64,000 bases of DNA, taken from the IMG/VR virus record IMGVR_UViG_3300021961_000063, positions 1 to 64,000 of that record; one strand, 5' to 3'. The position numbers and the translations under genes are program-made. Each line of letters starts with the position of its first letter. Position 1 is the first letter of the stretch. This DNA comes from a virus. A model generated the notes under the pieces. The model was not told the origin of the DNA and made no database searches. It worked only from the letters and a program-made list of their open reading frames with translations. Of this stretch, positions 29,305-44,499 are shown piece after piece.

Positions 29305-29330
29305 AGAGCGAAGAAATTCGCTCTTTTTTT
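29305..29330 (+). terminator. Rho-independent terminator between convergent genes
   Basis: AGAGCGAA-GAAA-TTCGCTCT followed by a T run. Confidence 0.82.
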
Positions 29331-30964: not shown

Positions 30965-31477
30965 ATGTCAATTGTTGAAGAATATCGTGAGTGGGTTTCT
31001 ACTTATGATCCCACTCCCCCAAAACCAAACAAAACATACAACAAGTTTTTTTGGTGGCGCCGTTATCAAGAACACAAGTTTTTGCCCAAAATGGCCAATA
31101 TATTTGACAAGGCCAAAAATGGTGATTATGATGTTTCCCCGTATTGGAAGCAAATTCAATACGAGCATTATTTCGAAGAGCAGGAACTTACCAAATTTCA
31201 TGCCAATTATACTGGTTCATATGAAAATCGTGGTTGGGCTGAACGTGATGTGTCAAAATTGTTCTGGCAACGTAGAAAACGTTTGCTGACTGATGCCGAA
31301 CGTGATGAGCACGCTCGTTGGCAGTTGCTTGTAAAGGATCTCAAAACGTGTTTTGGTGGTAATGAAGACGATATTCGTGATATGTTCGAGTCGTTTGAAG
31401 GTACAATGTCTGAATTTATTACCGCGTATCGTGATTCAAGAGATCTTCCAAAAATCCAACCTGTTCCTAAATTTTAA
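30965..31477 (+). CDS. Hypothetical protein
   Basis: 170 aa ORF, operonic. Confidence 0.6.
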   Translation: MSIVEEYREWVSTYDPTPPKPNKTYNKFFWWRRYQEHKFLPKMANIFDKAKNGDYDVSPYWKQIQYEHYFEEQELTKFHANYTGSYENRGWAERDVSKLFWQRRKRLLTDAERDEHARWQLLVKDLKTCFGGNEDDIRDMFESFEGTMSEFITAYRDSRDLPKIQPVPKF

Positions 31478-31513: not shown

Positions 31514-32296
31514 ATGAAAATTAGTCATGAAGTACCTCTATGTTTATTAGAGGATAGTCAAAAATTTAATGATTATGATTATTGTTTACCTCATTTGCTA
31601 GATGAGGAACCAGGTTACGAAGCGTATTTTCGTCAAGCTAAAGCAGAAGGACGATATATTATTATGGATAATTCACTCCATGAACTTGGAGAAGCCTATG
31701 ATACAGAGCGTCTGATGTATTGGATTAATCAACTCAAACCAAATGAATTTATTATTCCAGATGTATGGGAAGATTGTACAGCATCTATAGTTAATGCTCG
31801 TGCTTGGACACTTGCTAATTTACCTGATGAAGTAACTAAAGTAGCAGTTGTACAAGCAAAAACAATTAGAGAAGCAATTACCTGTTACCAAACATACAAA
31901 GATTTAGGATACCAGAAAATTGCTTTCTCATATGGTGGTAGTTATTATTTAGAATATTCATCACATCCTAATAAAAATTTAGCTAAAGCATTAGGTCGAA
32001 TTGAAATAGTAACTCGTTTATATAATTCTAAAATTATTAGTCATGTAGACCGAGTACATTTGTTAGGTTGCCAAGTACCACAAGAATTCAGTTGGTATAA
32101 GGATATGCCTTTTATTGAAACCATTGATACATCAAATCCAATAATGGCAACTATTGATGGTTTGGCTTATACAACAAATGGTCTAACTGAAAAACCAAAA
32201 GCAAATATGAATAATTATTTTTATATGGCTGCCGAGGATTTGGATTGGGAATTACTAGACTGGAATATTAATCACTTTAGAAAATTATTAAAATAA
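31514..32296 (+). CDS. tRNA-guanine transglycosylase-like (DpdA-like) protein
   Basis: IIMDNS, IPDVW, VVQ, VHLLG, IDTSNP match the TGT/DpdA TIM-barrel motif order; upstream of queC/D/E. Confidence 0.62.
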   Translation: MKISHEVPLCLLEDSQKFNDYDYCLPHLLDEEPGYEAYFRQAKAEGRYIIMDNSLHELGEAYDTERLMYWINQLKPNEFIIPDVWEDCTASIVNARAWTLANLPDEVTKVAVVQAKTIREAITCYQTYKDLGYQKIAFSYGGSYYLEYSSHPNKNLAKALGRIEIVTRLYNSKIISHVDRVHLLGCQVPQEFSWYKDMPFIETIDTSNPIMATIDGLAYTTNGLTEKPKANMNNYFYMAAEDLDWELLDWNINHFRKLLK

Positions 32297-32299
32297 GTT

Positions 32300-32524
32300 A
32301 TGGAAGAAAAAGATACAACAATGCTTTCCCTGTATGATTATTTAGGTAAAGCAGCTGGAAGAGAGTTAGGAAAAATGGTATTTCGAATTTCTCAAACTAA
32401 AAATATTAAACTTGAAGTTAAAGAAGTATCAAATCCTGCTTATACAGGTAAAATTTTAATGTATCCAAAATGGTTTTTGGATGAATATTTTAGTGTTCCA
32501 CAAATAGATGACCTACCCTTTTAA
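32300..32524 (+). CDS. Hypothetical protein
   Basis: 74 aa, SLYDYLGKAAG...YPKWFLDEYF. Confidence 0.6.
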   Translation: MEEKDTTMLSLYDYLGKAAGRELGKMVFRISQTKNIKLEVKEVSNPAYTGKILMYPKWFLDEYFSVPQIDDLPF

Positions 32525-32658
32525 TATGAATAACATAGATACAAATCCAGTTTGGGAAAAAATGTTTAAAGAAGTTTTAGACGAAATCCTTAAAAATTGT
32601 GCCTTCCTTAGTTTGGAAGATTATCGAGAATTAATTAAATTAGCAAATAAAAAAAACA

Positions 32659-33495
32659 ATGAATAAACAAGCAGTATTGTCACTAAGTGGAGGTATGGAC
32701 AGCTCCACATTGTTGCTTCATCTACTTGCCGAGGGCTATGAAGTGACAGCACTGTCTTTTGATTACGGTCAAAAACACTCAATTGAATTAGCAAGAGCTC
32801 AATCTCTGGTTTGGTACTTAAATGAATCGGGTCACAACATAAATTATCAAGTAATTAAACTTGATGGTTTGAGCCAATTACTTAATTCAGCACTTGTAAC
32901 TGGAGGTGAAGATGTACCTGAAGGTCACTACGCTGAGGAAAATATGAAAGCTACTGTTGTTCCTAACCGAAACAAAATATTTAGTAGTATCATTCAGGCT
33001 GTTGCCTTGTCAATTGCTAATGCTAAAAACACTGAAGTTCATATTGCTATGGGCATCCACGCTGGTGATCACGCTATTTACCCTGATTGTCGTCAGGAGT
33101 TTCGTGACATTGATTACGAAGCTTTTGTCGCTGGTAATTGGGATGCTCATCTTGTCTCTTACTACACTCCTTATCTTCATACTGATAAGTTTGGTATTTT
33201 AGAAGATGGTCAAGTTTGTTGTGTAGAGTTAGGTGTTGATTTTGATGAAGTATATAAACGTACTAACACATCTTATAAACCATTAGTACATATTGTTTAT
33301 GATAATTATGATAATCCATCTCCCGAATGGTTTAGTGACTACAAATCAGCATCTTCCGTTGAGCGAGTAGAAGCATTTATTAAGCTTGGTCGTAGAGATC
33401 CTGTTCACTATGCTGATGAATTTGGACCCGTAACTTGGGAATACGTAAAAGAGTATGTATCTTCCGTTCTAGATGACTACGCGAAGACAGTATAG
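32659..33495 (+). CDS. queC: 7-cyano-7-deazaguanine synthase
   Basis: SGGMDS, FDYGQKH, TVVPNRN, GIHAGDHAIYPDCR. Confidence 0.95.
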   Translation: MNKQAVLSLSGGMDSSTLLLHLLAEGYEVTALSFDYGQKHSIELARAQSLVWYLNESGHNINYQVIKLDGLSQLLNSALVTGGEDVPEGHYAEENMKATVVPNRNKIFSSIIQAVALSIANAKNTEVHIAMGIHAGDHAIYPDCRQEFRDIDYEAFVAGNWDAHLVSYYTPYLHTDKFGILEDGQVCCVELGVDFDEVYKRTNTSYKPLVHIVYDNYDNPSPEWFSDYKSASSVERVEAFIKLGRRDPVHYADEFGPVTWEYVKEYVSSVLDDYAKTV

Positions 33496-33685
33496 AAAAT
33501 CACTCCCACCACAACAACGTTATGTTGTAATTAACCAAGAAGGTGAAATATACACCGGATTAATAGGTGGTTGTTCTCAATGGTCCTATAGTTGGGATGA
33601 GGCAAAACCACTACACAAAGAAAATACATCTTGGCTCCTGCGAAATAATCCAGGAGCCGAGATAATTAAAGAAGAAGAAATATGA
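33473..33685 (+). CDS. Hypothetical protein
   Basis: 70 aa ORF overlapping the end of queC. Confidence 0.5.
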   Translation: MTTRRQYRKSLPPQQRYVVINQEGEIYTGLIGGCSQWSYSWDEAKPLHKENTSWLLRNNPGAEIIKEEEI

Positions 33686-33837
33686 AACACCCCGATCCCA
33701 AAAAACATCAGATTATTAGCTTTGTTAAATCAGGAGTTCGCCTTTTAGGTTATGGACTTATTCCATTTAACTTGGTTACTGCAACTGTTGTACTTATATT
33801 TAGTGAATTAATTGGAATTATAGAAGAATTAGTATGA
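33682..33837 (+). CDS. Small membrane protein, 51 aa (not in ORF track)
   Basis: MKHPDPKKHQIISFVKSGVRLLGYGLIPFNLVTATVVLIFSELIGIIEELV; ATGA-coupled on both sides. Confidence 0.65.
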   Translation: MKHPDPKKHQIISFVKSGVRLLGYGLIPFNLVTATVVLIFSELIGIIEELV

Positions 33838-34082
33838 AAAAAATATTTTATTTTACAGCCCCTTGGTGTGGTCCTTGCCGTATGTTAGGTCCTACTATGG
33901 ACCAGGTAGCACAGACAGTACCTGTAGAAAAAATTAACATTGATTATGAAATCGATAGAGCTAAAGCAGCAAATGTAATGAGTGTCCCTACCGTAGTATT
34001 AACAGAAAACGGACAAGAAATTCGTCGCTTTGTAGGTGCTCGTAGTTATCAAGATGTAATGAATTTTATCAATAATGGGTAA
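33834..34082 (+). CDS. Thioredoxin
   Basis: FTAPWCGPC, SVPT. Confidence 0.92.
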   Translation: MKKIFYFTAPWCGPCRMLGPTMDQVAQTVPVEKINIDYEIDRAKAANVMSVPTVVLTENGQEIRRFVGARSYQDVMNFINNG

Positions 34083-34563
34083 ATATCAATCAACAAAACT
34101 ATTTGACAACTATTCAGTTGCCATTCGCCAGTGGAAAGCACAACATTCACATTGTCAGTTGCTTCATGGTTATGCTTTAGAATTTAAAGTATGGTTTGAA
34201 TCAGTTGAACCACTTGAGGAAAACCAATTAGATGAAATGAATTGGATTCAAGATTATGGTGGATTCAAATCAACAGATGCTGAACCAACACCAGGTAACG
34301 GTTTGAAAGATTGGATGAACTATATGTGGGACCATACTTTGCTAATTGAAAAGGATGATCCATATTTGGATTTGTTTCAATCAATGAACCCAACAGTTTG
34401 TCATTTGCGTGTTATGGATAAAATTGGAGCCGAATCAGCTGCTAAATTGGTTTACGATAAATTCAATGATGTTTTGTCTAAAACAGGTGGTGGACGAGTT
34501 AAAGTAACAAAAGTAGAATGTTGGGAAGCTAAAAACAACAGTTCAATTTACATAGGAGAATAA
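34075..34563 (+). CDS. queD: 6-carboxy-5,6,7,8-tetrahydropterin synthase
   Basis: HCQLLHGY, DYGG, WDHT, GAE, WE...NS. Confidence 0.9.
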   Translation: MGKYQSTKLFDNYSVAIRQWKAQHSHCQLLHGYALEFKVWFESVEPLEENQLDEMNWIQDYGGFKSTDAEPTPGNGLKDWMNYMWDHTLLIEKDDPYLDLFQSMNPTVCHLRVMDKIGAESAAKLVYDKFNDVLSKTGGGRVKVTKVECWEAKNNSSIYIGE

Positions 34564-34565
34564 TT

Positions 34566-35381
34566 ATGGATCATAGTAAAGTAACAGAAAAACAATGGTT
34601 AATCGAGGAACCAGGTCGTATTGAAGATTACGATAAAAAGATTCCTGTACTAGAAATTTACCCTTGCGTTCAATCAGAAGGATCTCGTCAAGGTCGCCCC
34701 ACAATTGCTGTACGAGTTACAGGATGTACTCACCGCTGTTGGTTTGGTGAAGGCGGTTGGTGCGATTCTTGGTACACTAGTATTCATCCTGAAAAAGGTA
34801 TTTATACATTTAACGACATTGTTAAAATGTATGATGAAAATCCTCATATTAATGAAATGATGTTAACTGGAGGTTCACCTACTATGCAGCCTGCTTTGGT
34901 TAATGAATTAACTCATTTTGCTAACGAAAGAGGAATATTTATTACCATTGAAACCGAAGGATCTCACTTTATTAAAACCGATTACCCAATTGGGCTTATA
35001 TCTCTTAGCCCTAAGTTTAGTAATTCTATCCCTAAAATTGACGTTAATACGCCAATGGGGAAATTGGTTGACCAGAAAATGATTGACCAACATAATAAAT
35101 TTCGTTTAAATAAAGCAGCAATGGCTTTGACGATGGAGTATCATGATAATTATCATTTCAAGCCAGTATGGGATGGAACAGAAGAAAACTTAGCTGAAAT
35201 TGAAGCCTTCCGAGTTGAAATGGATATTCCAAAATGTAAAACTTGGATTATGCCTGCTGGTGATACTCGTGAAACACTAATTGAGATGTATCCTATTTCA
35301 ATTGAAATGTGTATGAAACATGGTTATAACTGGACTGGTCGAGACCACATTATTGCTTATGATACCAAAAGAGCCGTGTAA
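34566..35381 (+). CDS. queE: 7-carboxy-7-deazaguanine synthase (radical SAM)
   Basis: VQSEG...GRP...VR.TGC...C...CDS, LTGGSP, IETEG, SLSPK. Confidence 0.92.
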   Translation: MDHSKVTEKQWLIEEPGRIEDYDKKIPVLEIYPCVQSEGSRQGRPTIAVRVTGCTHRCWFGEGGWCDSWYTSIHPEKGIYTFNDIVKMYDENPHINEMMLTGGSPTMQPALVNELTHFANERGIFITIETEGSHFIKTDYPIGLISLSPKFSNSIPKIDVNTPMGKLVDQKMIDQHNKFRLNKAAMALTMEYHDNYHFKPVWDGTEENLAEIEAFRVEMDIPKCKTWIMPAGDTRETLIEMYPISIEMCMKHGYNWTGRDHIIAYDTKRAV

Positions 35382-35392
35382 TATTTATAATA

Positions 35393-35638
35393 ATGAAACA
35401 AAAATTAACTTATTTTTATAGTCCTGATTGTTCTAAATGTAGTGAAATTAAACCTTTAGTAAAGGAACTAGAATCTGTTTTTGATATTACTTATATTAAT
35501 TCCTACGAAAATGAAATATTAGTAGAGTCAAACAACATTAACTGGGTCCCAGCTTTCGTTTTAGAAGATCAAACAGGTAAATATAAATTTGAGGGCAAAA
35601 AAGAAATTACTCAGTTTTTGAAAAAGGTTATTTTATGA
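35393..35638 (+). CDS. Thioredoxin-like protein
   Basis: FYSPDCSKC, WVPAF. Confidence 0.78.
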   Translation: MKQKLTYFYSPDCSKCSEIKPLVKELESVFDITYINSYENEILVESNNINWVPAFVLEDQTGKYKFEGKKEITQFLKKVIL

Positions 35639-36123
35639 TTTTGTTTACAGAACAAGAAATTCAAAATAAAGTAGGTGAATTAGCCTACAAAATTAGAAAA
35701 AAACATCACGAGGAACCTCCCGTGTTTATATGCGTTTTAAACGGCGCTTTTATGTTCTTTACGGATTTAATGAAACATATGGGTGATTGTCATATAGATT
35801 TTATACGCGCGAAATCTTACACAGATACCACGCAGGGTGAGATATACATTACAAAACCTTTAGAAATAGATATTACTGGAAAAGATGTTTATATTGTTGA
35901 TGATATCTATGATTCAGGTAATACTATGAAACACCTAATTAAACATTTAGAGTATGGCAACCCAAAATCATTAACCCCAGTAACATTATTTAAACGATAT
36001 TCCTCTGAGGATCCTGATTTGATTTATGGTTTTAATTTAGAAAACGAACACTTTTTAGTTGGTTATGGTTTAGATGGAGAAAATGGATTAAAGCGTAATC
36101 AAAAATATATTTCCTCTATTTAA
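35635..36123 (+). CDS. hpt: Hypoxanthine/guanine phosphoribosyltransferase
   Basis: CVLNGAFMFFTDL, KSY, IVDDIYDSGNT PRPP loop, FLVGYGLD. Confidence 0.9.
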   Translation: MILFTEQEIQNKVGELAYKIRKKHHEEPPVFICVLNGAFMFFTDLMKHMGDCHIDFIRAKSYTDTTQGEIYITKPLEIDITGKDVYIVDDIYDSGNTMKHLIKHLEYGNPKSLTPVTLFKRYSSEDPDLIYGFNLENEHFLVGYGLDGENGLKRNQKYISSI

Positions 36124-36164
36124 TTTTTAGGGTAAAGGTGTTATATTTATAACATATCTACTTT

Positions 36165-36593
36165 ATGGTAAATACAACACAAGTTAATATACCCATTGAT
36201 ACTTTTGTAGTAACTGCCATAACACAAGCAAATTGGGATAGAGCAGAAGTAAAATGGGACAAATACTACTCAGATTTTTATTATGCCCGCTATTTAGAAA
36301 AAGAGTTCAACACAAAAATTCCAGGCCCTCCTTATAAAGTACTTTGGAACCACGCTATTATTTTATCTATTGCTTTTCCTTCAGATTATGACTATCAAGA
36401 TCAACAAAAAGAACGACAAAAAAGTAAGAAAAAGGTTAAAGTAATATTTATGGCCGAAGACTTAACTAAGGTTATAGATAAAGAAAAAAACAATATGATT
36501 AAAGCTGAATTTAAAGATAAAGTTGAAAATATATTAACTGAAAAAATGGGTCAAAAAGTAATATTAGAAGATGTTCACATTATATACCGATAA
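36165..36593 (+). CDS. Hypothetical protein (late cassette)
   Basis: Preceded by TATATTTATAACA. Confidence 0.55.
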   Translation: MVNTTQVNIPIDTFVVTAITQANWDRAEVKWDKYYSDFYYARYLEKEFNTKIPGPPYKVLWNHAIILSIAFPSDYDYQDQQKERQKSKKKVKVIFMAEDLTKVIDKEKNNMIKAEFKDKVENILTEKMGQKVILEDVHIIYR

Positions 36594-37143
36594 AAATAAT
36601 ACCTTTCAATGTAAAATAACTTTAGAGGGGGCATCTGAATCTACAGCCTTGGCTCGTTTAATCATTGAAGGTGAACATCATAATTTAATGTTTGATGGTA
36701 AAATCAAAAATGGTTTATGTGAAGTTAATATTGGCCAATTTAAAAACTTTGATAATTTTAAAAGTAAAGGTAAAATTAAGTTAGAAGTTATAGCAGATGA
36801 TGTTTGTTTTACTCCTTGGAAATCTGAATATAATATAAAACAAAATAAAAAAGTTGTTGCTGAAGTAAATGAAAAAACTTCTTCAAAACAACGTGTAAAA
36901 TCAACAAAAGATTCATACATTAGATATACTCCTAAAACAGAAGTTGAGAATCATGGAGAAAAAATACTTGAAATGTTAGTTAAAGAAAGAGTTGATATTA
37001 AACAATATAAATCTTTAGATGTTATGTTAAATAAAAATATTAAATCCAAACTTATATTTAAAGCATATTTCCACAAAAACCAACTTTCAGAACAAGTATT
37101 AAATTCAACTTTAGGATATCTTGTAGATAAATTTTTAAACTAA
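36571..37143 (+). CDS. Hypothetical, probably structural protein
   Basis: Beta-rich N-domain ending LEVIADD..FTPW. Confidence 0.55.
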   Translation: MFTLYTDKNNTFQCKITLEGASESTALARLIIEGEHHNLMFDGKIKNGLCEVNIGQFKNFDNFKSKGKIKLEVIADDVCFTPWKSEYNIKQNKKVVAEVNEKTSSKQRVKSTKDSYIRYTPKTEVENHGEKILEMLVKERVDIKQYKSLDVMLNKNIKSKLIFKAYFHKNQLSEQVLNSTLGYLVDKFLN

Positions 37144-37150
37144 CTTTTAA

Positions 37151-37771
37151 ATGGCTATAACTACGTTTTCAGGATCCTCAATTAGTGATACATACCAACG
37201 ACTTGTACAAACAGACGGAACGTTATTAGCTGATGGTACTGGAAGTATTTTAAATAATTTAAATTTACCCAAGTTAAGTATAAGTGGTAATTTATATGTT
37301 TCAGGCACATTATATGCTGAAAAATCAATCATAATAACTCAGTCCTATTATTCTGGTTCCCAAATTTTTGGAAATGAGTTAACAGATACCCACCAGTTTA
37401 CAGGTTCTATTTTAGCTACAGGCTCAGAACAAATAATAGGATATTTTAGTGTTACTGGTTCCTCTACATTATCTGGTTCTAATACTTTATTAGGAGTAAC
37501 AGATGTAAAAAATATTTTTATAGTTACGGGTAGCATATACGCTTCAGCTTCTGTTAACATTATAGGTGATACAACAATGACCGGTTCTTTATTTGTAACT
37601 AGTACAAATGATGATGTTTTTGTTGTTAAAAATCAGAGTAATGTTTCTCTTTTATCCGTAACTCAAAGTGGAGTTATAACTTTATCAACTCAATCAATAG
37701 AATTAACAGACCCTGCACCAAAAGGTGGAATTTATTTTACTTCTACTAATTTTTATGTAGGACTTAATTAA
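37151..37771 (+). CDS. Fibre-like virion protein (TGS/SGS repeats)
   Basis: SGSQIFGN...DTHQFTGS and many vTGS repeats. Confidence 0.65.
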   Translation: MAITTFSGSSISDTYQRLVQTDGTLLADGTGSILNNLNLPKLSISGNLYVSGTLYAEKSIIITQSYYSGSQIFGNELTDTHQFTGSILATGSEQIIGYFSVTGSSTLSGSNTLLGVTDVKNIFIVTGSIYASASVNIIGDTTMTGSLFVTSTNDDVFVVKNQSNVSLLSVTQSGVITLSTQSIELTDPAPKGGIYFTSTNFYVGLN

Positions 37772-37819
37772 AAAATAAAAAAAAATTATATATTTATCAA
37801 TAAAAATTAAACAAAAATT

Positions 37820-38536
37820 ATGGCAACTTGGAAAAAAGTAATTGTATCTGGATCGCAAGCTGAATTAGCAGCTTTAACTTCTAGTATAGCGGTATTAGTA
37901 GGTACAAATCAACAAATTACAACAAATCAAGCAACAACCTTTTTAACAGGTTCGTTTACTGGATCCTTTACAGGTGTAGCGGATCTTCCTGATTTAATCA
38001 ATGGCTCTGGAATTACATCCTTTACTTATGATGGTTCAGCTACAGCTACCGTTTCAGTATCTGGTGCTGCTGCTTTATCTTCAAACAATGTTCCTAAATG
38101 GTCAGGCGATGCTTTTGTTAACTCAGGTATTTCTGATAATGGTACTACTATAACTATTTCAGAAGATGCTGTATTCCAAAGTGATATTACTGTATTAGGC
38201 ACAGCATCTTTCCAAAATACTACTAATTTAGAAGTAGCAGATAGATTTATATTGTTAGCTTCAGGATCTAATACAACTGGTGATGGTGGTTTAGTAATTC
38301 AACAAGCTAGCCAAGACGTAGGTGAGTTATTTGGTTATGAAAATTCAATTAATCGTTGGGGATTCACTTCATCCTTTAGCGCTGATTCTTCTACATTTAA
38401 CGCCGCTGCTTATATAACAACAACCGAAGTAGGAACATCATCACCTTCATCTGCACCAATTTATGGAGGAGCCGGTAATGGATATGGTAATATGTACATT
38501 AAAACAGATACAGGAGACATTTTTATCTATTCATAA
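37820..38536 (+). CDS. Fibre-like virion protein (WKKV..SGS N-terminus)
   Basis: MATWKKVIVSGS, TGSFTGSFTG, NTTNLEVADRFILL. Confidence 0.65.
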   Translation: MATWKKVIVSGSQAELAALTSSIAVLVGTNQQITTNQATTFLTGSFTGSFTGVADLPDLINGSGITSFTYDGSATATVSVSGAAALSSNNVPKWSGDAFVNSGISDNGTTITISEDAVFQSDITVLGTASFQNTTNLEVADRFILLASGSNTTGDGGLVIQQASQDVGELFGYENSINRWGFTSSFSADSSTFNAAAYITTTEVGTSSPSSAPIYGGAGNGYGNMYIKTDTGDIFIYS

Positions 38537-38558
38537 AAAAATAATTAAAAAAATAGTT

Positions 38559-38759
38559 ATGGGATTTTCAGCAAAACACGTTGAAGGATCTAATCCTTTG
38601 ATGAAACCAACATCTACTTCTAATAGTCAATTAACTACAAAAGAAATAGAAGTTCTTTTATCTATGATTAAAAAAACAACTTTTTTAGGAGAAGATATAG
38701 AACCTTTGTATAATTTGATTATTAAATTACAAACCCAACATTTGGAACAAACTAAATAA
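38559..38759 (+). CDS. Small protein, possibly a fibre assembly chaperone
   Basis: Start moved to the AGTTATG at 38559; helical. Confidence 0.55.
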   Translation: MGFSAKHVEGSNPLMKPTSTSNSQLTTKEIEVLLSMIKKTTFLGEDIEPLYNLIIKLQTQHLEQTK

Positions 38760-38766
38760 TTAAGTT

Positions 38767-39003
38767 ATGAATTTATTTTCTGTAGATTTTACCCACAGTG
38801 AATTAAATTTTATTCGTCAATCTTTAGAAACTGTTCCTATTCAAGGTCGTGATGCTAAATTTTGTGCTTCTATTCAGATTAAAATAGAACATGAATTAGA
38901 AGAAATCACTCGTATGATTAAAGCTGAAGAACAAAATAAACTATTAGGTCTTCAAGAAATTATTAATCAAGAAGAAAACAAAACTTCTAAAAAGAAAAAA
39001 TAA
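38767..39003 (+). CDS. Small coiled-coil protein
   Basis: Helical; the EL..I...L...I.G.D pattern resembles the preceding ORF. Confidence 0.55.
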   Translation: MNLFSVDFTHSELNFIRQSLETVPIQGRDAKFCASIQIKIEHELEEITRMIKAEEQNKLLGLQEIINQEENKTSKKKK

Positions 39004-39017
39004 TATATTTATAACAG

Positions 39018-39073
39018 TATTATAGGCTCGAAAGAGAAGTGGACATAGCACATCTATGTAACCAACCATAATA
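39018..39073 (+). ncRNA. Candidate structured RNA leader
   Basis: Outer TATTAT(A)GG/CCATAATA stem, CTC-GAAA-GAG hairpin, ACATAG-N5-CTATGT hairpin; lies between the late motif and the ATG. Confidence 0.4.
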
Positions 39074-39081
39074 AAAATAAA

Positions 39082-39333
39082 ATGCCCAATTGGAAAAAAG
39101 TAATAACATCTGGATCTGATGCCACTCTAAACTCCGTTTCAGGATCTTCTTTTATATATTCAGGAGGAGACATAACAGCTCAAGATCACCTACAATCTTT
39201 AAGTGGAGTTTTAACCTTAACTCCCCAAGATCCCCTTCCCTCAGGATTACCTACTGGAAGTTTTGCTGTTAGTTCCTCAGTACCCCCAAAACCTTATTTT
39301 TGGGATGGTACTTCATGGAATGTTCTTTATTAA
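39082..39333 (+). CDS. Short fibre-family protein (WKKV..SGS N-terminus)
   Basis: MPNWKKVITSGS paralogous to 37820; C-terminal PYFWDGTSW. Confidence 0.6.
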   Translation: MPNWKKVITSGSDATLNSVSGSSFIYSGGDITAQDHLQSLSGVLTLTPQDPLPSGLPTGSFAVSSSVPPKPYFWDGTSWNVLY

Positions 39334-39396
39334 TTAAACTTAAAAATTTATTGTTTAATTTGGTTTTTTTAAAATAAGTTATTATATTAACGTTAT

Positions 39397-40098
39397 ATGA
39401 GTATTGAAAACAAACGTCGTAAAAAACATGATGGTATTGAATGTGTTCCTGTAGGTTATGCTAATGGAGTAGCAGCAGGTTTTCCGTTTACAGACAAAGA
39501 AAAGGAATCAATGATTAATGAAGCTGAAGAAGCGTTTGGTAAGTTTCTTGATGCTTTAAAATGTGATTGGCGTAATGATCCCAACTCAATGGAAACACCA
39601 CGTCGCGTAGCTAAAGCCTACGTAAACGATTTGTGGAAAGGTCGTTACAACAACTTTACAGAAATTACTTCATTCCCCTCAGATGGATATGATGGAATTA
39701 TTATTGAGCGTAACATTCAACTTACCTCAATGTGTTCACATCACCACCAAACAATTCGTGGTGTAGTCCATATTGGTTATGTAGCTGGAACTGATGGTCA
39801 AGTAATTGGTTTGTCTAAATTAAACCGTATTGTTGAACATTTTGGCCGTAGAGGAGCTATCCAAGAACAATTAACCTCCGCTATTCACCAAGCAGTAGAT
39901 AAAGTATGTGAAGGTAATCGTGGTGTTATTGTTACTGTAGTTGCTACTCACAATTGTGTAAGCTGTAGAGGTATTAATCACCAAGGAGCTGCTATGGTTA
40001 CAACTAAAGCATCAGGTGTGTTTATGGATAACAATAATCAAGCACGTAAAGAATTCTTTGACAGCTTAAAAATTAACAACGGTCATATTTCAATCTAA
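39397..40098 (+). CDS. folE: GTP cyclohydrolase I
   Basis: ETPRRVAKAY, SMCSHHH, IGLSKLNRIV, IQEQLT, HNCVSCRG. Confidence 0.95.
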   Translation: MSIENKRRKKHDGIECVPVGYANGVAAGFPFTDKEKESMINEAEEAFGKFLDALKCDWRNDPNSMETPRRVAKAYVNDLWKGRYNNFTEITSFPSDGYDGIIIERNIQLTSMCSHHHQTIRGVVHIGYVAGTDGQVIGLSKLNRIVEHFGRRGAIQEQLTSAIHQAVDKVCEGNRGVIVTVVATHNCVSCRGINHQGAAMVTTKASGVFMDNNNQARKEFFDSLKINNGHISI

Positions 40099-40268
40099 TG
40101 AAGTTAGGTGGTTTTGTTGAAAAGGTAATTAAAATTATTACCTTAGGGCAAGGTCATCGAATTGCTCTATTCATAGCTAAAAAAATGGGTTATGATGATT
40201 GTGGCTGTAAAGCAAGAAAAGACAAGTTAGACTTGTTTTGGGACAAAATCTTAAATAAATTAAAATAA
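40098..40268 (+). CDS. Small DCGC-motif protein, 56 aa (not in ORF track)
   Basis: MKLGGFVEKVIKIITLGQG...DDCGCKARKDKLD...; TAATG-coupled to folE. Confidence 0.65.
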   Translation: MKLGGFVEKVIKIITLGQGHRIALFIAKKMGYDDCGCKARKDKLDLFWDKILNKLK

Positions 40269-40269
40269 T

Positions 40270-40767
40270 ATGTTATTAAATTCAAATCAAATATCAAATC
40301 ACATTATTGAGTCCGAATTTTCAAAACGTGCTCAAATTGGTATCGACCTTTCAGTTCAAAAAATTGAATGGGTTTCTGCTGGAACTACTGTTTATACTGA
40401 TAAAACTATCGTAGATCCTTTCTTTTATCATGAACAGCCTTTGATCATGATTGATGGTAAAGAATGCTGGCGCTTGTCCAAAGGTGTTTATTCAGTTACA
40501 TTTAATGAAGGAATTAATGTTCCTGTTGATTGTGCTGCTAAAATTACTCACCGCTCATCTTTGTATCGTGGAGGTACAATTATTGAATCTCCTTGGTGGG
40601 ATCCTGGTTTCCATTGTGAAATTATGAACTCAACAATGATTGTAAATAGTTCAATTATTATTGAGAAAAATGCTCGAATCGCTCAAATCGCTTTCTGGCG
40701 TGTTGAAGAGGTAGGTGAGCAATACAATGGTCAATTCCAAGGTCTAAACACAGCATACAACAAGTAA
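40270..40767 (+). CDS. Trimeric dUTPase / dCTP deaminase family protein
   Basis: GIDLS, HRSSLYR, WDPGF, RIAQIAF, YNGQFQG. Confidence 0.82.
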   Translation: MLLNSNQISNHIIESEFSKRAQIGIDLSVQKIEWVSAGTTVYTDKTIVDPFFYHEQPLIMIDGKECWRLSKGVYSVTFNEGINVPVDCAAKITHRSSLYRGGTIIESPWWDPGFHCEIMNSTMIVNSSIIIEKNARIAQIAFWRVEEVGEQYNGQFQGLNTAYNK

Positions 40768-43361
40768 TGTATCAAGCTCTATACTTTGATAGAGAGGAAA
40801 AACAGTATTATCTGAGAGATGATAGGTGGGACGGTTTTAAATCTTTTAAATACTGGCCCTCCTATTATGCTCCAGATTCTGATGGTGAGTTTGAAACACT
40901 AGAGGGAACTAGAGTATCCCCTGTTAAAAAAATGTCCGATTACAAAAACCCTTGGTATTTTGAAAAGGATGTAGATAAACTTACTCGTTTACTTGTTGAT
41001 TATTATTACGAATCAGACGAACCACCTAAATTTCATAACATTGTTTATTTAGACATTGAGTGTGAGATTATGGGAGCGTTAACCGAGGATAACATTAAGG
41101 ATCCTAAAGGTAAAATCACAGCTGTTGCTTTATATAATCAAAACGATAAAAAATATTACTGTTTAATTTTAGATGAAGCTAAAAAAATGTCTGCTGCTAG
41201 GTCTGAGGGTAAAGAAATTATCCCTTATGCTAGTGAAAAAGAATTATTACACGGATTTTTAGAAAAATGGTATGAATTAGATCCTACTATTATTACAGGA
41301 TGGAATAGTGGTTTTTTTGATATTCCTTATTTATATTATAGAATTAAAAAAGTATTAGGCGAATCAATTGCCCAAACACTTTCTCCTATTAATAAAATTC
41401 ATTTTACACCTCAATTCCCCGAACAACCTGTTAATTTTGCTGGTATTAATCACCTTGATTATATGCTTTTGTTTAAAAAATATATTGTAAAACAAGAGCC
41501 ATCTTATCGTTTAGGTGATATTGGTAAAAAATATGCTGACCTAGAAAAAATTGAATATCAAGGTTCATTAGATAGATTGTTTGCTGAGGATGTAGATAAA
41601 TTTATTGAATATAACCTTCGAGACGTAGAAATTATTGTTGAGTTAGAAAACAGACTTAAATTTATTGACCTAACAACTACAATTGTTCACTTGTGCCATA
41701 CAGAATATGAAGCTATTTATTTTTCTACTCTGTTAAATGAAGGAGCTATTTTAACTTACCTAAAACGTAGAGGTATTGTTTCACCTAACAAACCTACAAC
41801 CTACAATCCAGCATTAAGAACATTAGAGGAAGAATATGCTGGAGGTTATTTGAAAGATCCTACACCTGGTTTGTATGAGTGGGTTATTGACTTAGATTTT
41901 ACCTCATTGTATCCTTCTATTATTCGCTCACTTAATATGGGAATTGAAACATTAGTAGGTAGAATTGTAAACCGAGGTAAATTCGACAACCAATGGTCAC
42001 TTAAGGAACTTAGGTCAATGGATCCTAATACTACTATTGAGATTGAAAAAGTAAAAAAAGATAGAACAACAGTTAGATCTAAAACCACAGTTGGGGATAT
42101 AATTGGAGTTATTGAGGAAAATGACCTATTAATTTCCGCTCCAGGAGTAATGTTCCGTAAGGATAAATCAAGTGTTGTTTGTGAAATTCTAGCTGACTGG
42201 TTTGCTAAACGTCAAGAGTATAAAAAACTCATGAAAAAAGCATACAAGGAAGATAATGACCCAGTTATGGGAGAGTTTTACAATAAACGTCAACACGCTT
42301 ATAAAATTAAGTTGAATGACGTTTATGGTGTATTTGCTATCAATGGTTGGAGATACACAGATGGTAATAAATTCATTAGTAAAGCAATTACTTTAACAGG
42401 TCAACGATTAACTCAAGAAAGTATTAAGTTTGTTAATAATTGGTTAAATGAACAATTAGAAACTAACAATAAAGATTATATTGTCACCTCAGATACCGAT
42501 TCATTGTTTATTCAAGTAAAAGATTTAATTTTACAACGTAAACCTGAGTTAGTAAATGCTGATAAGGAAACAATTGTAAAAGAAGTACTACAAGTTGCTA
42601 CTGAAATTCAAAAATTAGCAAACGATAATCTACATACAATGGTTAAGGAATTATTTAATGTTGATTATCCAAATGAACCTCATTATTTCGAATTAAAACA
42701 AGAGGTTGTACTTGATAGAGGTTATTTTGCTGGCAAGCGTAGATACGCCCAACATATTGTTAACAAAGAAGGTGTTACTGTAGATGAATTAGATGTTAAA
42801 GGTTTGGATTTGATGAAATCAAATTTCCCACCATTGTTTAGAAGATTCGGTGAACATATTATTAATGAAATTATGTTTGGTAAACCTAAAGATGATGTTG
42901 ATAAACAAATATTAGACTTTAGAACCGAATTAAGAACAATTGATTGGAGACAAATTTTAAAACCTACTGGATTAAAGAAAATGGAAGAATATTTAGCTGC
43001 TCCCCCTAGAGGTGGTGAAATATTTTCTAAATTAGGATTAAAATGCCCTATTAATACTAAAGCAGCTATTTACTATAATGATATTTTAAGATTTAAGGGA
43101 CTAGACAAAAAATACCCAACATTCCAAATTGGTGATAAAATGTTTATTGCTTATTTAAAAGATAATCCCTATCGAATTGATGTTGTTGGTTTTAATGGAT
43201 ACAATGATCCCCCAGAAATGATGGAATTTATAGAAAAGTATATTGATAGAGACGGTTTGTTTGATTCAGTTATGAAAAACAAACTAGAGTCATTATATTC
43301 AGATCTAGGTTGGGGTGCTGTAGTGCTTAACCAAAACATAAATAAATTTTTTAAATTTTAA
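40767..43361 (+). CDS. Family B DNA polymerase
   Basis: Exo LDIE, GWNSGFFDIPY, YNLRD; pol DFTSLYPS, KIKLNDVYG, SDTDS, KRRY. Confidence 0.95.
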   Translation: MYQALYFDREEKQYYLRDDRWDGFKSFKYWPSYYAPDSDGEFETLEGTRVSPVKKMSDYKNPWYFEKDVDKLTRLLVDYYYESDEPPKFHNIVYLDIECEIMGALTEDNIKDPKGKITAVALYNQNDKKYYCLILDEAKKMSAARSEGKEIIPYASEKELLHGFLEKWYELDPTIITGWNSGFFDIPYLYYRIKKVLGESIAQTLSPINKIHFTPQFPEQPVNFAGINHLDYMLLFKKYIVKQEPSYRLGDIGKKYADLEKIEYQGSLDRLFAEDVDKFIEYNLRDVEIIVELENRLKFIDLTTTIVHLCHTEYEAIYFSTLLNEGAILTYLKRRGIVSPNKPTTYNPALRTLEEEYAGGYLKDPTPGLYEWVIDLDFTSLYPSIIRSLNMGIETLVGRIVNRGKFDNQWSLKELRSMDPNTTIEIEKVKKDRTTVRSKTTVGDIIGVIEENDLLISAPGVMFRKDKSSVVCEILADWFAKRQEYKKLMKKAYKEDNDPVMGEFYNKRQHAYKIKLNDVYGVFAINGWRYTDGNKFISKAITLTGQRLTQESIKFVNNWLNEQLETNNKDYIVTSDTDSLFIQVKDLILQRKPELVNADKETIVKEVLQVATEIQKLANDNLHTMVKELFNVDYPNEPHYFELKQEVVLDRGYFAGKRRYAQHIVNKEGVTVDELDVKGLDLMKSNFPPLFRRFGEHIINEIMFGKPKDDVDKQILDFRTELRTIDWRQILKPTGLKKMEEYLAAPPRGGEIFSKLGLKCPINTKAAIYYNDILRFKGLDKKYPTFQIGDKMFIAYLKDNPYRIDVVGFNGYNDPPEMMEFIEKYIDRDGLFDSVMKNKLESLYSDLGWGAVVLNQNINKFFKF

Positions 43362-43363
43362 AA

Positions 43364-44104
43364 ATGATTAATAAACTAGATTTACAAAGTATTATTTCAA
43401 AGTATTACTTGAACGGAATGAATGAGGCCGTCAAGTGGGATATTAAAGATAATAAGTTAACTATTAAGTTTACTGCTCCTGATAAAACTATGATTGGGAT
43501 AGTAACTTGTGATGACTTTGAATTAGAGGATTCATCTATCGGAATTAGTAATACTACTCAACTAAATAAACTAATTGCTATTACAAATGGTTATCTAACT
43601 TTAGAATTTGTTAAGCAACACAAATTAATTACTAAACTTATCATAGCAGACAACCAGTTTACTTTAAACTATGCTTTAGCTGATACTATGATTATTCCTA
43701 AAGCCGGCGAGTATGTTGGAGATGGTGTCTATAACATTGAAGCTTCATTAGATAACGAAAGTATAAACGCTATAGTTAAAGCAAAATCCGCTCTTGCTGA
43801 CACCGATACAGTTGTATTTAAACCGTTTACTAACGATGATGGTGATTTATTATTAGAAATGTTGTTTGGAGGTAATATCGAATACTCAAACAAAGTATCC
43901 TTTTACCTACCAGAAATTACAACAACTAATTTACCTAATGAATTTAAAGCACACTATAACTCTAATTTGATTAAAGAAATTATGTACTGTAACAAAGATG
44001 TATCTAATTGTACCATGGGAATTAATTTAGATGGAGTTATGAGACTTGCTTTCGATAACGGAAGTGTTAAGAGCGAATATTATTTAGTAGCAAAAGAACT
44101 TTAA
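43364..44104 (+). CDS. DNA polymerase sliding clamp (gp45/PCNA-like)
   Basis: 246 aa directly after PolB; C-terminal SEYYLV; clamp loader nearby. Confidence 0.75.
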   Translation: MINKLDLQSIISKYYLNGMNEAVKWDIKDNKLTIKFTAPDKTMIGIVTCDDFELEDSSIGISNTTQLNKLIAITNGYLTLEFVKQHKLITKLIIADNQFTLNYALADTMIIPKAGEYVGDGVYNIEASLDNESINAIVKAKSALADTDTVVFKPFTNDDGDLLLEMLFGGNIEYSNKVSFYLPEITTTNLPNEFKAHYNSNLIKEIMYCNKDVSNCTMGINLDGVMRLAFDNGSVKSEYYLVAKEL

Positions 44105-44106
44105 AG

Positions 44107-44499
44107 ATGAACACTAAGACTAAAAGCCCGGTATTTGAAAATACCAAGAAAAATTACTTAATTGACATTGACGGAACAATTACCGATGATGTACCTAATG
44201 AAGAACCTGAAAGAATGGTTACGTGTGAACCCTTTGAAGGTAGTATCGACTTAATAAATAAATGGTATGATGAAGGGCATATAATCACCTTTTTTACCTC
44301 TAGAACAGAAGCACATAGAAAAATAACTGAAGAATGGTTATATAAATATGGTTACAAATATCATAACCTATTATTAAACAAACCAAGAGGGGGTAATTAT
44401 CATTGGATTGATAACCATGTTGTTAGAGCTACAAGATATAATGGCAAATGGTCTCCCTTAACAACAATAAGTGCCAACATTCAAGTATTTGAAGAATGA
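44107..44499 (+). CDS. HAD-family phosphatase
   Basis: LIDIDGTI, FTSR, KPR, WID. Confidence 0.82.
   Translation: MNTKTKSPVFENTKKNYLIDIDGTITDDVPNEEPERMVTCEPFEGSIDLINKWYDEGHIITFFTSRTEAHRKITEEWLYKYGYKYHNLLLNKPRGGNYHWIDNHVVRATRYNGKWSPLTTISANIQVFEE

What the first reader, a model, noticed from the sequence alone, without database searches (positions are those of the whole stretch)
31514..43361. 7-deazaguanine cluster with HPRT, dUTPase-like gene and PolB: possible nucleotide-level (pre-replicative) G replacement
Seen: a TGT/DpdA-like gene, queC, queD, queE and folE. A purine phosphoribosyltransferase is coupled right after queE/thioredoxin, and folE runs through a small ORF into a dUTPase/dCD-like gene, PolB, the clamp and a HAD phosphatase. 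Established: FolE-QueD-QueE-QueC make preQ0, and canonical DpdA swaps the base into DNA after replication. Inference: HPRT could turn preQ0 (or guanine released by base exchange) into a nucleotide, so that the modified base enters through the dNTP pool using the phage NrdJ and PolB. No queF, gat-queC or arcS is visible in this window, so the predicted end product is dPreQ0 unless more genes lie elsewhere.
Basis: partly seen in the sequence, partly recalled or inferred. Interest (0 to 1): 0.8.

Follow-up and report, generated by a model that had tools for sequence, protein, structure and literature searches.

The report
Phage DpdA3 guanine-replacement gene cluster
This uncultured T4-like phage carries the known DpdA3-type gene set that swaps guanine in phage DNA for a 7-deazaguanine. 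The purine salvage enzyme inside the cluster most likely recycles the expelled guanine and does not feed the new base to the polymerase.

Summary
31514-32296 is a DpdA3-subfamily transglycosylase with a TGT fold and all three catalytic Asp. It is followed by QueC, two thioredoxins, QueD, QueE, an Hpt-type purine phosphoribosyltransferase (PRT), FolE, a dUTPase/DCD-fold pyrophosphatase, T4-like PolB, a PCNA-fold clamp and a HAD protein.

This order is conserved in 75 related viral contigs. DpdA3 is the subfamily published in 2023 for complete guanine replacement, so the core is known. With no QueF in near-complete relatives, dPreQ0 is the likely product.

The proposal that HPRT turns preQ0 into a nucleotide is not supported:
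- The PRT keeps every canonical 6-oxopurine/N7-contact residue.
- It is swapped for an unrelated Gpt-type PRT or lost at least four times on the DpdA3 tree.
- It is absent from two near-complete relatives and from Campylobacter phage CP220, which has 100% replacement.
- A Gpt-like domain is fused to FolE in Queuovirinae, whose modification is partial and motif-specific.

Guanine recycling fits best. An NTP pyrophosphatase next to FolE is present in every locus where PolB is in view. A nucleotide-level swap by DpdA3 itself therefore stays open, at about 0.2.

This scan has noted the same theme at least 30 times on other DNA. New here are the Hpt-type PRT and the dUTPase-fold enzyme.

The parts
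25106..26962 (+). Class II (B12-type) ribonucleotide reductase.
   Evidence: PF02867 1e-9 and RNR-II insertion domain 1e-5.
30965..31477 (+). 170-aa protein of unknown function, found upstream of DpdA3 in many relatives.
   Evidence: tblastn hits in 52 of 75 loci. It is the ORF directly upstream of DpdA3 in about half of them. No Pfam, NCBIfam or PHROG family and no P-loop.
31514..32296 (+). DpdA3-subfamily guanine transglycosylase. It is a minimal TGT barrel of 260 aa with no Zn subdomain.
   Evidence: D52, D83, D205 and HLLG182-185 are invariant in 30 orthologues and conserved in phiST CGPG_00065.
32300..32524 (+). Small conserved ORF (74 aa) after DpdA3, function unknown.
   Evidence: tblastn hits in 45 of 75 loci, at the same place.
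32659..33495 (+). QueC (CDG to preQ0), long form with a C-terminal extension.
   Evidence: PF06508 5e-36 and TIGR00364 1e-35. The C-terminal 131 aa are 66% identical to the QueC of immuto_2-6A, a phage that goes on to preQ1 derivatives.
33834..34082 (+). Thioredoxin 1, conserved between QueC and QueD.
   Evidence: PF00085 4e-18; tblastn hits in 44 of 75 loci.
34075..34563 (+). QueD (CPH4 synthase).
   Evidence: PF01242 4e-9.
34566..35381 (+). QueE (radical-SAM CDG synthase).
   Evidence: TIGR03365 9e-16 and PF04055.
35393..35638 (+). Thioredoxin 2.
   Evidence: PF00085 1e-6.
35635..36123 (+). Hpt-type 6-oxopurine phosphoribosyltransferase. Proposed role: guanine salvage and guanine sink.
   Evidence: PF00156 2e-26 and TIGR01203 2.6e-36, 125 bits against a cut-off of 150. 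33-38% identical to bacterial Hpt. Canonical motifs are conserved in 20 phage orthologues.
36165..39333 (+). Lineage-specific insertion of seven ORFans (142, 190, 206, 238, 98, 78 and 83 aa) between the PRT and FolE, with lower GC.
   Evidence: No Pfam family above cut-off and no PHROG hit below E 1e-3. It is absent from close relatives, where the PRT abuts FolE (L005, L007). GC is 0.28.
39397..40098 (+). FolE, GTP cyclohydrolase I, the first pathway step.
   Evidence: PF01227 6e-43.
40098..40268 (+). Small ORF (56 aa) between FolE and the pyrophosphatase.
   Evidence: 84-98% identical copies at the same place in seven loci of the subclade.
40270..40767 (+). dUTPase/DCD-fold dNTP pyrophosphatase (archaeal-Dut-like, no deaminase Glu). 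It sits where most relatives have a MazG/PRA-PH-like pyrophosphatase.
   Evidence: NF002598 1.3e-24 (87 bits against a cut-off of 130), PF22769 2e-11, PDB 9w59 8e-16. Swap with the MazG-like gene.
40767..43361 (+). Family B (T4 gp43-like) DNA polymerase.
   Evidence: PF00136 7e-33 and PF03104 5e-20. Best phage hit is Microcystis phage Mel-JY01 at 34%.
43364..44104 (+). Sliding clamp (PCNA/gp45 fold).
   Evidence: AF2 pLDDT 75, pTM 0.77. Foldseek matches PCNA at probability 1.0, TM 0.65-0.73.
44107..44499 (+). Small HAD-family phosphatase. It is not conserved at this place in relatives and is probably not part of the module.
   Evidence: Pfam HAD-type hits around 1e-7; 0 of 75 loci have a tblastn hit.

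Best explanation
The stretch is the DpdA3-type 7-deazaguanine DNA-hypermodification module of an uncultured T4-like phage. The host is probably Bacteroidota: the nearest relatives of the module genes are in phages of Flavobacterium and Bacteroides, and an unchecked scan note reports a T9SS signal elsewhere on the contig.

FolE, QueD, QueE and QueC turn GTP into preQ0. The two thioredoxins probably supply reducing power. DpdA3, a minimal TGT-fold transglycosylase with all three catalytic aspartates, exchanges guanine for the 7-deazaguanine base. By analogy with every DpdA3 phage analysed so far, the replacement is expected to be complete or nearly so. With no QueF or further tailoring genes, the product should be dPreQ0, or dADG if QueC stops early.

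The Hpt-type PRT is an accessory. It takes the guanine expelled by the exchange, one per modified position, and makes GMP with PRPP. This refills the GTP that FolE consumes. It also keeps free guanine low, so that guanine does not compete with preQ0 and the exchange can run to completion.

The dUTPase-fold enzyme is the module's dNTP pyrophosphatase. It is most simply the phage's dUTPase, and in this subclade it displaced the MazG-like enzyme of relatives.

Shown here: gene identities, the fold, conserved catalytic residues, synteny, and the distribution of PRT types. Inferred: substrates, the extent of replacement, and the salvage role.
For: DpdA3 identity:
-.
- Published: DpdA3 phages CP220, phiST and immuto_2-6A are completely modified (PMC10516641).

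Pathway genes:
-.
- QueC is 66% identical over its C-terminus to that of immuto_2-6A, which must make preQ0 for its QueF.
- No QueF in the contig or in five near-complete relatives.

PRT as a salvage accessory:
- Canonical 6-oxopurine PRT motifs, including the N7-contact Asp, are invariant.
- 29 of 36 spanning loci carry a PRT at the same place, but of two unrelated types (23 Hpt, 6 Gpt).
- At least 4 state changes on the DpdA3 tree.
- Absent from the whole of G002 (166 kb, terminal repeats), from G004 and from CP220.
- This pattern fits a function that host Hpt/Gpt can also supply.
- A Gpt-like domain with intact RGG, VDDIxDSGxT and WVVFPWE motifs is fused to FolE in about 30 Queuovirinae-type phages that carry DpdA and PolA. 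Modification in that subfamily is partial and, where mapped, motif-specific (PMC10484667).

dUTPase reading:
- Best family is archaeal-type Dut, and the deaminase Glu is absent (sequence).
- Homologues occur in Bacteroides and Chryseobacterium phages without DpdA3.
- In G002-G004 the MazG-like gene is the only dUTPase candidate.
Against: - No substrate was assayed. A PRT acting on 7-deazaguanine bases has a verified precedent: TubE uses CDG plus PRPP (PMC6112128). I could not compare the phage PRTs with TubE or ToyH.
- Every locus with PolB in view keeps an NTP pyrophosphatase between FolE and the polymerase (27 of 27). phiST and immuto_2-6A also place a MazG-like gene beside FolE and DpdA3. 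CP220 has an HD phosphohydrolase-kinase and a second kinase flanking DpdA3. This linkage with nucleotide enzymes is not needed by a purely DNA-level exchange.
- G001, in the window's subclade, has a canonical dUTPase in addition to the module's dUTPase-fold gene.
- DpdA3 activity on DNA has never been reconstituted (PMC10516641).
- Complete replacement is inferred from relatives that are 20-39% identical.
Confidence: 0.6

Rival explanations
1. Nucleotide-level swap by DpdA3 itself, on the T4 hydroxymethyl-C pattern. The module's NTP pyrophosphatase (MazG-like, dUTPase-fold, or HD in CP220) turns dGTP into dGMP. DpdA3 exchanges guanine for preQ0 on the free mononucleotide. Kinases raise it to the triphosphate and the phage polymerase incorporates it. 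The PRT still only recycles the released guanine.
For: - An NTP pyrophosphatase sits between FolE and PolB in 27 of 27 loci, from two unrelated folds.
- The FolE-MazG-like pairing recurs in phiST and immuto_2-6A with different polymerases.
- CP220 DpdA3 is flanked by an HD plus P-loop kinase and an AAA_28 kinase. immuto_2-6A has a kinase two genes after DpdA3.
- DpdA3 is a bare 260-aa barrel without the Zn subdomain.
- DpdA3 could not be made to modify DNA in E. coli, and the ADG nucleoside was seen in CP220-infected cells (PMC10516641).
- A modified dGTP was proposed earlier for Campylobacter phages (PMC6884629).
- G001 has a separate canonical dUTPase.
Against: - No TGT-fold enzyme is known to act on a mononucleotide; all characterised members act on polynucleotides.
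- The authors who defined DpdA3 propose post-replicative insertion.
- No DNMK or thymidylate-type kinase was found in five near-complete relatives, and no guanylate or DNMK kinase in the contig.
- The MazG-like gene is the only dUTPase candidate in G002-G004, and the dUTPase-fold gene has homologues in phages without DpdA3. An ordinary dUTPase therefore explains the linkage.
- Genes placed near a polymerase are common in phage replication modules.
Confidence: 0.2
2. The Hpt-type PRT works like TubE/ToyH and phosphoribosylates preQ0. Host kinases, the phage class II RNR and NDK make dPreQ0-TP. The dUTPase-fold enzyme removes dGTP, and PolB incorporates the analogue.
For: - TubE precedent for a purine-PRT homologue acting on CDG (PMC6112128).
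- The PRT lies inside the que operon in 29 of 36 loci.
- In phiST the order is PRT, DNMK-like kinase, one gene, RNR.
- Class II RNR and thioredoxins are present.
Against: - The PRT is lost or swapped repeatedly and is absent from complete relatives and from CP220, which still replaces 100% of G.
- Canonical guanine/hypoxanthine contact residues are kept, including the Asp that pairs with N7, an atom 7-deazaguanines lack.
- A PRT domain is fused to FolE in phages of a subfamily with partial, motif-specific modification.
- DpdA3, the only universal gene, would have no role.
- A ribonucleotide intermediate would also enter RNA.
Confidence: 0.1
3. The cluster does not modify DNA. It boosts queuosine-precursor supply for host tRNA, or DpdA3 acts on RNA.
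For: Before DpdA3 was recognised, que genes without a known DpdA were read in this way (PMC6884629).
Against: DpdA3 homologues are the signature of phages whose DNA is fully modified. The module is embedded in the replication genes and is conserved with the polymerase.
Confidence: 0.03

Closest known systems
[quoted passage not shown]
   Same: DpdA3 (39% identity), FolE, QueD, QueE and a long-form QueC (66% identity over the C-terminus). A purine PRT lies between QueE and FolE and an NTP pyrophosphatase lies after FolE. The host phylum (Bacteroidota) is probably the same.
   Different: immuto_2-6A adds QueF and a formyltransferase (product fdPreQ1), uses a Gpt-type PRT, a MazG-like pyrophosphatase and PolA, and has a kinase near DpdA3. 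The window has an Hpt-type PRT, a dUTPase-fold pyrophosphatase and PolB, with no QueF or DpdN.
dADG system of Campylobacter phage CP220 (Firehammervirus)
   Same: T4-like myovirus. DpdA3 is 37% identical. Replacement of G is complete.
   Different: CP220 has no PRT anywhere. Its DpdA3 is flanked by an HD plus kinase protein and another kinase, and its que genes are scattered.
dDG system of Cellulophaga phage phiST (DpdL/DpdA3)
   Same: DpdA3 homologue (20% identity, hhalign 97%) with the same catalytic Asp. The order QueD-QueE-FolE-pyrophosphatase leads towards the polymerase. A purine PRT is present in the genome.
   Different: phiST lacks QueC and has the DpdL decarboxylase. Its PRT lies about 17 kb away, beside a DNMK-like kinase and RNR.
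Queuovirinae DpdA clusters (VpKK5, NP1/PaMx25-like; iggy, PMC10484667)
   Same: FolE-QueD-QueE-QueC plus a DpdA next to the polymerase, and a purine PRT tied to FolE.
   Different: These clusters have a different DpdA subfamily and partial, motif-specific modification. The PRT is a domain fused to FolE, there is no NTP pyrophosphatase in the cluster, and the polymerase is PolA.
Tubercidin and toyocamycin biosynthesis (TubE/ToyH; PMC6112128)
   Same: FolE, QueD, QueE (and QueC) together with a purine-type PRT in one cluster.
   Different: Those clusters lack any transglycosylase and make free nucleoside antibiotics. TubE is shown to use CDG. Nothing here shows that the phage PRT uses a 7-deazaguanine.
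Pre-replicative base replacement in T4 (dCTPase gp56, gp42, gp1) and in Z-genome phages (MazZ, DatZ, PurZ)
   Same: A dNTP pyrophosphatase sits beside base-modifying genes and the phage polymerase.
   Different: Those systems modify or synthesise the mononucleotide with enzymes of other folds. No dGTPase activity, phage kinase or mononucleotide substrate is shown here.

Membership tests
DpdA3 subfamily of TGT/DpdA transglycosylases | Sequence homology to the founding members (phiST CGPG_00065, CP220 gp056, immuto_2-6A gp206) | tested here: met
   tblastn gives 39% and 37% identity, E 2e-47 and 4e-34. phiST: BLASTP 5e-13 and hhalign 97% over 233 columns.
DpdA3 subfamily of TGT/DpdA transglycosylases | TGT (beta/alpha)8 barrel fold | tested here: met
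   AF2 pLDDT 94. Foldseek matches TGT 2ash and 2pot and DpdA 7ui4 at probability 1.0, TMq 0.56-0.68.
DpdA3 subfamily of TGT/DpdA transglycosylases | Three invariant active-site aspartates (general acid/base, base recognition, nucleophile; PMC10164549) | tested here: met
   D52 (DNS), D83 (PD) and D205 (IDTS) are invariant in 30 orthologues and aligned to Asp in phiST DpdA3. Equating them with TGT D102, D156 and D280 rests on motif and strand position, not on a printed structural alignment.
DpdA3 subfamily of TGT/DpdA transglycosylases | Encoded together with 7-deazaguanine synthesis genes | tested here: met
   FolE, QueD, QueE and QueC lie in the same operon-like run, conserved in 75 loci.
DpdA3 subfamily of TGT/DpdA transglycosylases | Complete replacement of G in virion DNA | not testable with these tools
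   Needs LC-MS of virion DNA.
Hypoxanthine/guanine PRT (TIGR01203) | Full-length match above the curated cut-off | tested here: not met
   125 bits against a cut-off of 150, although the match is full length at E 2.6e-36. PF00156 is above its cut-off.
Hypoxanthine/guanine PRT (TIGR01203) | PRPP loop with the N7-contact Asp, Ser-Tyr catalytic loop, base-stacking aromatic, GYG-x-D and RN motifs | tested here: met
   VDDIYDSGNT, KSY, HFLVGYGLD and KRN are present in the window protein. These motifs are conserved in 20 phage orthologues.
TubE/ToyH-type 7-deazapurine PRT | Activity on CDG or preQ0 with PRPP, and kinship to TubE/ToyH | not testable with these tools
   No TubE or ToyH sequence could be fetched, and the activity needs an assay.
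Archaeal-type dUTPase (NF002598) in the DCD-DUT superfamily | Match above cut-off; conserved phosphate and Mg motifs; no deaminase Glu | tested here: inconclusive
   87 bits against a cut-off of 130. GIDLS, HRSS, DPGF and RIAQ motifs are present, and no Glu lies at the deaminase position (read from the sequence). Base specificity is unknown.
T4-like family B DNA polymerase | Exonuclease and polymerase domains | tested here: met
   PF03104 5e-20 and PF00136 7e-33.
PCNA/gp45-type sliding clamp | Two-domain clamp fold next to the polymerase | tested here: met
   Foldseek matches PCNA at probability 1.0, TM 0.65-0.73. There is no sequence-family hit.

The most novel reading that the evidence does not exclude
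DpdA3 may not be a DNA-level insertase. It could be a mononucleotide transglycosylase working in a T4-like pre-replicative scheme. In that scheme the always-present NTP pyrophosphatase makes dGMP from dGTP, which also depletes dGTP. DpdA3 swaps guanine for preQ0 on dGMP, kinases and PolB put the analogue into DNA, and the PRT recycles the guanine. This would explain why only DpdA3 phages reach 100% replacement and why DpdA3 failed in DNA-based assays.
Probability: 0.2. Interest if true: 0.85.

Novelty: new member of a known kind. Interest (0 to 1): 0.42.

Why it matters
DpdA3 phages are the only ones known to replace every guanine with a 7-deazaguanine. How they manage this is unresolved. A modified-dGTP route was proposed in 2019 and a post-replicative exchange in 2023, and DpdA3 has never been reconstituted.

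This window adds two points:
- The purine PRT in the module can be of either of two unrelated families, or missing. That marks it as a helper for guanine handling and not as the entry step.
- The NTP pyrophosphatase next to FolE is the constant companion and can be of two unrelated folds.

Both points give simple enzyme assays that would decide between the models. The family is very abundant in metagenomes (3416 proteins at E <= 1e-5). The papers I could search do not mention the PRT link or the PRT-FolE fusion in Queuovirinae.

Tried and rejected
- Crippen et al. 2019 (Campylobacter phages): the paper is not held. What I say about it comes from PMC6884629 and PMC10516641.
- hhalign of the DpdA3 alignment against the single Queuovirinae DpdA of VpKK5: no signal. 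Kinship to other DpdA families therefore rests on the fold search.
- Isoelectric point as a hint for DNA binding: not discriminating, because VpKK5 DpdA is as acidic as DpdA3.
- A third PRT family in the seven PRT-less loci: none found by PRPP-loop pattern or by Pfam on the gap ORFs.
- The 170-aa ORF upstream of DpdA3 as a kinase or DpdB-like partner: no P-loop and no family hit, and it is the ORF directly upstream of DpdA3 in only about half of the loci.
- The HAD protein as a ToyI-like nucleotide phosphatase: not conserved in any related locus.
- dCTP deaminase reading of 40270-40767: the deaminase Glu is missing.
- A direct comparison of the phage PRTs with TubE/ToyH was not possible, because those sequences could not be fetched.

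Full report
**What is there.**
The window is the first 64 kb of a single 75,206-base viral contig. CheckV estimates it at about 40% of a genome. GC content is about 32%. From 31514 to 44499 all genes lie on the + strand and are tightly packed.

- Pfam, NCBIfam and PHROG scans give QueC (32659-33495), QueD (34075-34563) and QueE (34566-35381).
- A thioredoxin follows (35393-35638), then a type-I purine PRT whose start overlaps the thioredoxin stop (35635-36123).
- Next come FolE (39397-40098), a 56-aa ORF, a DCD/dUTPase-fold gene (40270-40767), a T4-like PolB (40767-43361) and a small HAD protein (44107-44499).
- The 246-aa ORF after PolB has no sequence-family hit. Its AF2 model matches PCNA clamps at probability 1.0, so 'clamp' is right.
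- A class II RNR lies upstream at 25106-26962, among gp32, UvsX-like, RNase H-like and DnaB-like genes.

**The transglycosylase.**
Pfam gives only a sub-threshold DUF6610 hit for 31514-32296. The protein nevertheless belongs to PHROG 19058 (9e-43).

- Its nearest named relatives are the DpdA of Flavobacterium phage immuto_2-6A (39% identity) and the CP220-group Campylobacter phage proteins (37%).
- It aligns end to end with phiST CGPG_00065 (hhalign 97%).
- These three are the founding members of DpdA3, the subfamily published in 2023 as 'allowing complete replacement of the guanines' (PMC10516641).
- The AF2 model (pLDDT 94) is a bare (beta/alpha)8 barrel. Its best structural matches are bacterial TGT and the DNA preQ0 insertase DpdA 7ui4.
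- D52, D83, D205 and the HLLG motif are invariant in 30 orthologues and conserved in phiST. By position they correspond to the three aspartates that are essential in TGT and DpdA (PMC10164549).
- There is no Zn-binding cysteine cluster.

**How common and how conserved.**
The family is very large in metagenomes: 3416 proteins at E <= 1e-5. I fetched 75 IMG/VR loci with 47-84% identical DpdA3 and mapped the window's genes and those of immuto_2-6A and CP220 onto them.

The common order is: unknown 170-aa ORF, DpdA3, small ORF, QueC, thioredoxin, QueD, QueE, PRT, FolE, NTP pyrophosphatase, PolB, clamp.

- Of 36 loci that span QueE to FolE or PolB, 23 have an Hpt-type PRT like the window's. Six have a Gpt/XGPRT-type PRT like that of immuto_2-6A. 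Seven have none.
- The two PRT types share only the PRPP loop.
- All 27 loci with PolB in view have an NTP pyrophosphatase between FolE and PolB. Twenty are MazG/PRA-PH-like (79% identical to immuto_2-6A gp208). Seven are dUTPase-fold.
- On a DpdA3 tree the dUTPase-fold type is confined to one well-supported clade of nine that holds the window. The PRT state changes at least four times.

**What the PRT is for.**
TubE, a purine-PRT homologue in a FolE/QueD/QueE cluster, makes the nucleotide from CDG and PRPP (PMC6112128). The evidence here points the other way.

1. All phage PRTs keep the DDIxD(S/T)G loop with the Asp that contacts purine N7. The Hpt-type also keeps the Ser-Tyr loop, the stacking aromatic, and the G(Y/F)G-x-D and RN motifs of ordinary 6-oxopurine PRTs.
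2. The gene behaves like an accessory that the host can replace. Two unrelated families occupy the same slot, and it is lost repeatedly. It is absent from the whole of G002 (166 kb, terminal repeats) and G004 (93% complete). It is also absent from CP220, which still replaces all its G.
3. The 'GTP cyclohydrolase' of Vibrio VpKK5-like phages, Pseudomonas NP1/PaMx25/Baskent-like phages and about 30 records in all is a 300-aa fusion. Its N-terminal Gpt-like domain keeps the RGG, VDDIxDSGxT and WVVFPWE motifs, and its C-terminal part is FolE. These phages carry DpdA and PolA. Modification in Queuovirinae is partial and, where it has been mapped, motif-specific, so it cannot come from the dNTP pool (PMC10484667).
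4. The HPRT route leaves DpdA3, the one universal gene, with nothing to do.

The simplest role is guanine salvage. Each exchange frees one guanine. The PRT turns it into GMP, which feeds the GTP that FolE consumes and keeps a competing substrate of the exchange reaction low. No paper in the searchable library holds the four terms phosphoribosyltransferase, 7-deazaguanine, phage and DpdA together. The two key papers do not contain the word 'phosphoribosyl'.

**The pyrophosphatase and the open question.**
- The window's enzyme is closest to archaeal-type dUTPase (NF002598 1.3e-24, below cut-off; PDB 9w59 8e-16). It lacks the deaminase Glu.
- Homologues occur in Bacteroides and Chryseobacterium phages that have no DpdA3.
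- In three near-complete relatives the MazG-like gene is the only dUTPase candidate. An ordinary dUTPase that was swapped between folds is therefore the economical reading.
- Against that, the link of a nucleotide phosphohydrolase with FolE and DpdA3 recurs in phiST, in immuto_2-6A and, as an HD domain plus kinases, in CP220.
- G001 in the window's subclade has a canonical dUTPase as well.
- DpdA3 has never been shown to act on DNA.

A T4-like scheme therefore cannot be excluded: dGTP to dGMP, base swap on dGMP by DpdA3, re-phosphorylation, then PolB. I give it about 0.2. Weighing against it, no mononucleotide substrate is known for any TGT-fold enzyme. I also found no DNMK or thymidylate-type kinase in five near-complete relatives, and no guanylate or DNMK kinase in the contig.

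**Predicted product.**
The QueC is of the long form shared with immuto_2-6A, which must reach preQ0 for its QueF. No QueF, DpdN-like formyltransferase or Gat-QueC was found in the contig, and no QueF in five near-complete relatives. ArcS, DpdL and DpdM were not specifically searched beyond the Pfam scans. dPreQ0 is therefore the best guess, and 60% of this genome is unseen.

**Standing.**
This is a new member of a known kind. This scan has already noted the DpdA3 plus PRT plus MazG theme at least 30 times in at least 28 other genomes. Most follow-ups reached the same reading, but those notes are not independent evidence. What this window adds is the Hpt-type PRT and the dUTPase-fold enzyme in the two accessory slots.

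Noticed in passing
window 36165-39333: A 3.2-kb block of seven ORFans with lower GC (0.28) is inserted between the PRT and FolE. Close relatives (L005, L007) have the PRT directly next to FolE. There is no Pfam family above cut-off and no PHROG hit below E 1e-3.
   Followed up: partly
L078 5998-6900 (Vibrio phage VpKK5); L079 5971-6864 (Pseudomonas phage Baskent_P4_1): The annotated 'GTP cyclohydrolase' of these Queuovirinae-type phages is a fusion of a Gpt-like PRT domain (all catalytic motifs intact) with FolE. About 30 phage records share it. The iggy paper does not mention it.
   Followed up: partly
window 33834-34082 and 35393-35638: Two thioredoxin genes lie inside the que operon. The first has tblastn hits in 44 of 75 loci. 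Their client (QueE, the RNR or something else) is unknown.
   Followed up: no
window 34075-34563 and loci L005-L027: QueD identity to the window is bimodal among close relatives, about 90% or about 43%, while the flanking genes stay similar. This suggests allele swapping of QueD within the clade.
   Followed up: no
L045 16675-17340 against immuto_2-6A gp208: The MazG-like pyrophosphatase is 79% identical between this clade and immuto_2-6A, although window-clade DpdA3 is only about 39% identical to that of immuto_2-6A. This suggests module parts move horizontally between Bacteroidota phages.
   Followed up: no
L002 10868-13361 (Campylobacter phage CP220): DpdA3 of CP220 is flanked by an HD phosphohydrolase fused to an AAA_33 kinase domain (gp055) and by an AAA_28 kinase (gp057), which is annotated as thymidylate kinase.
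   Followed up: partly
L050 12961-13650: A GIY-YIG (SegE-like) homing endonuclease gene sits inside the que module of one relative.
   Followed up: no
window 29330-30403 (- strand): A lone minus-strand gene with a concanavalin-A-like lectin/glucanase domain lies within the otherwise plus-strand replication region.
   Followed up: no
window 42290-42505: Another first-stage note (e1-6091387) reports unusual PolB motif B and C residues. I did not test whether they track with DpdA3.
   Followed up: no
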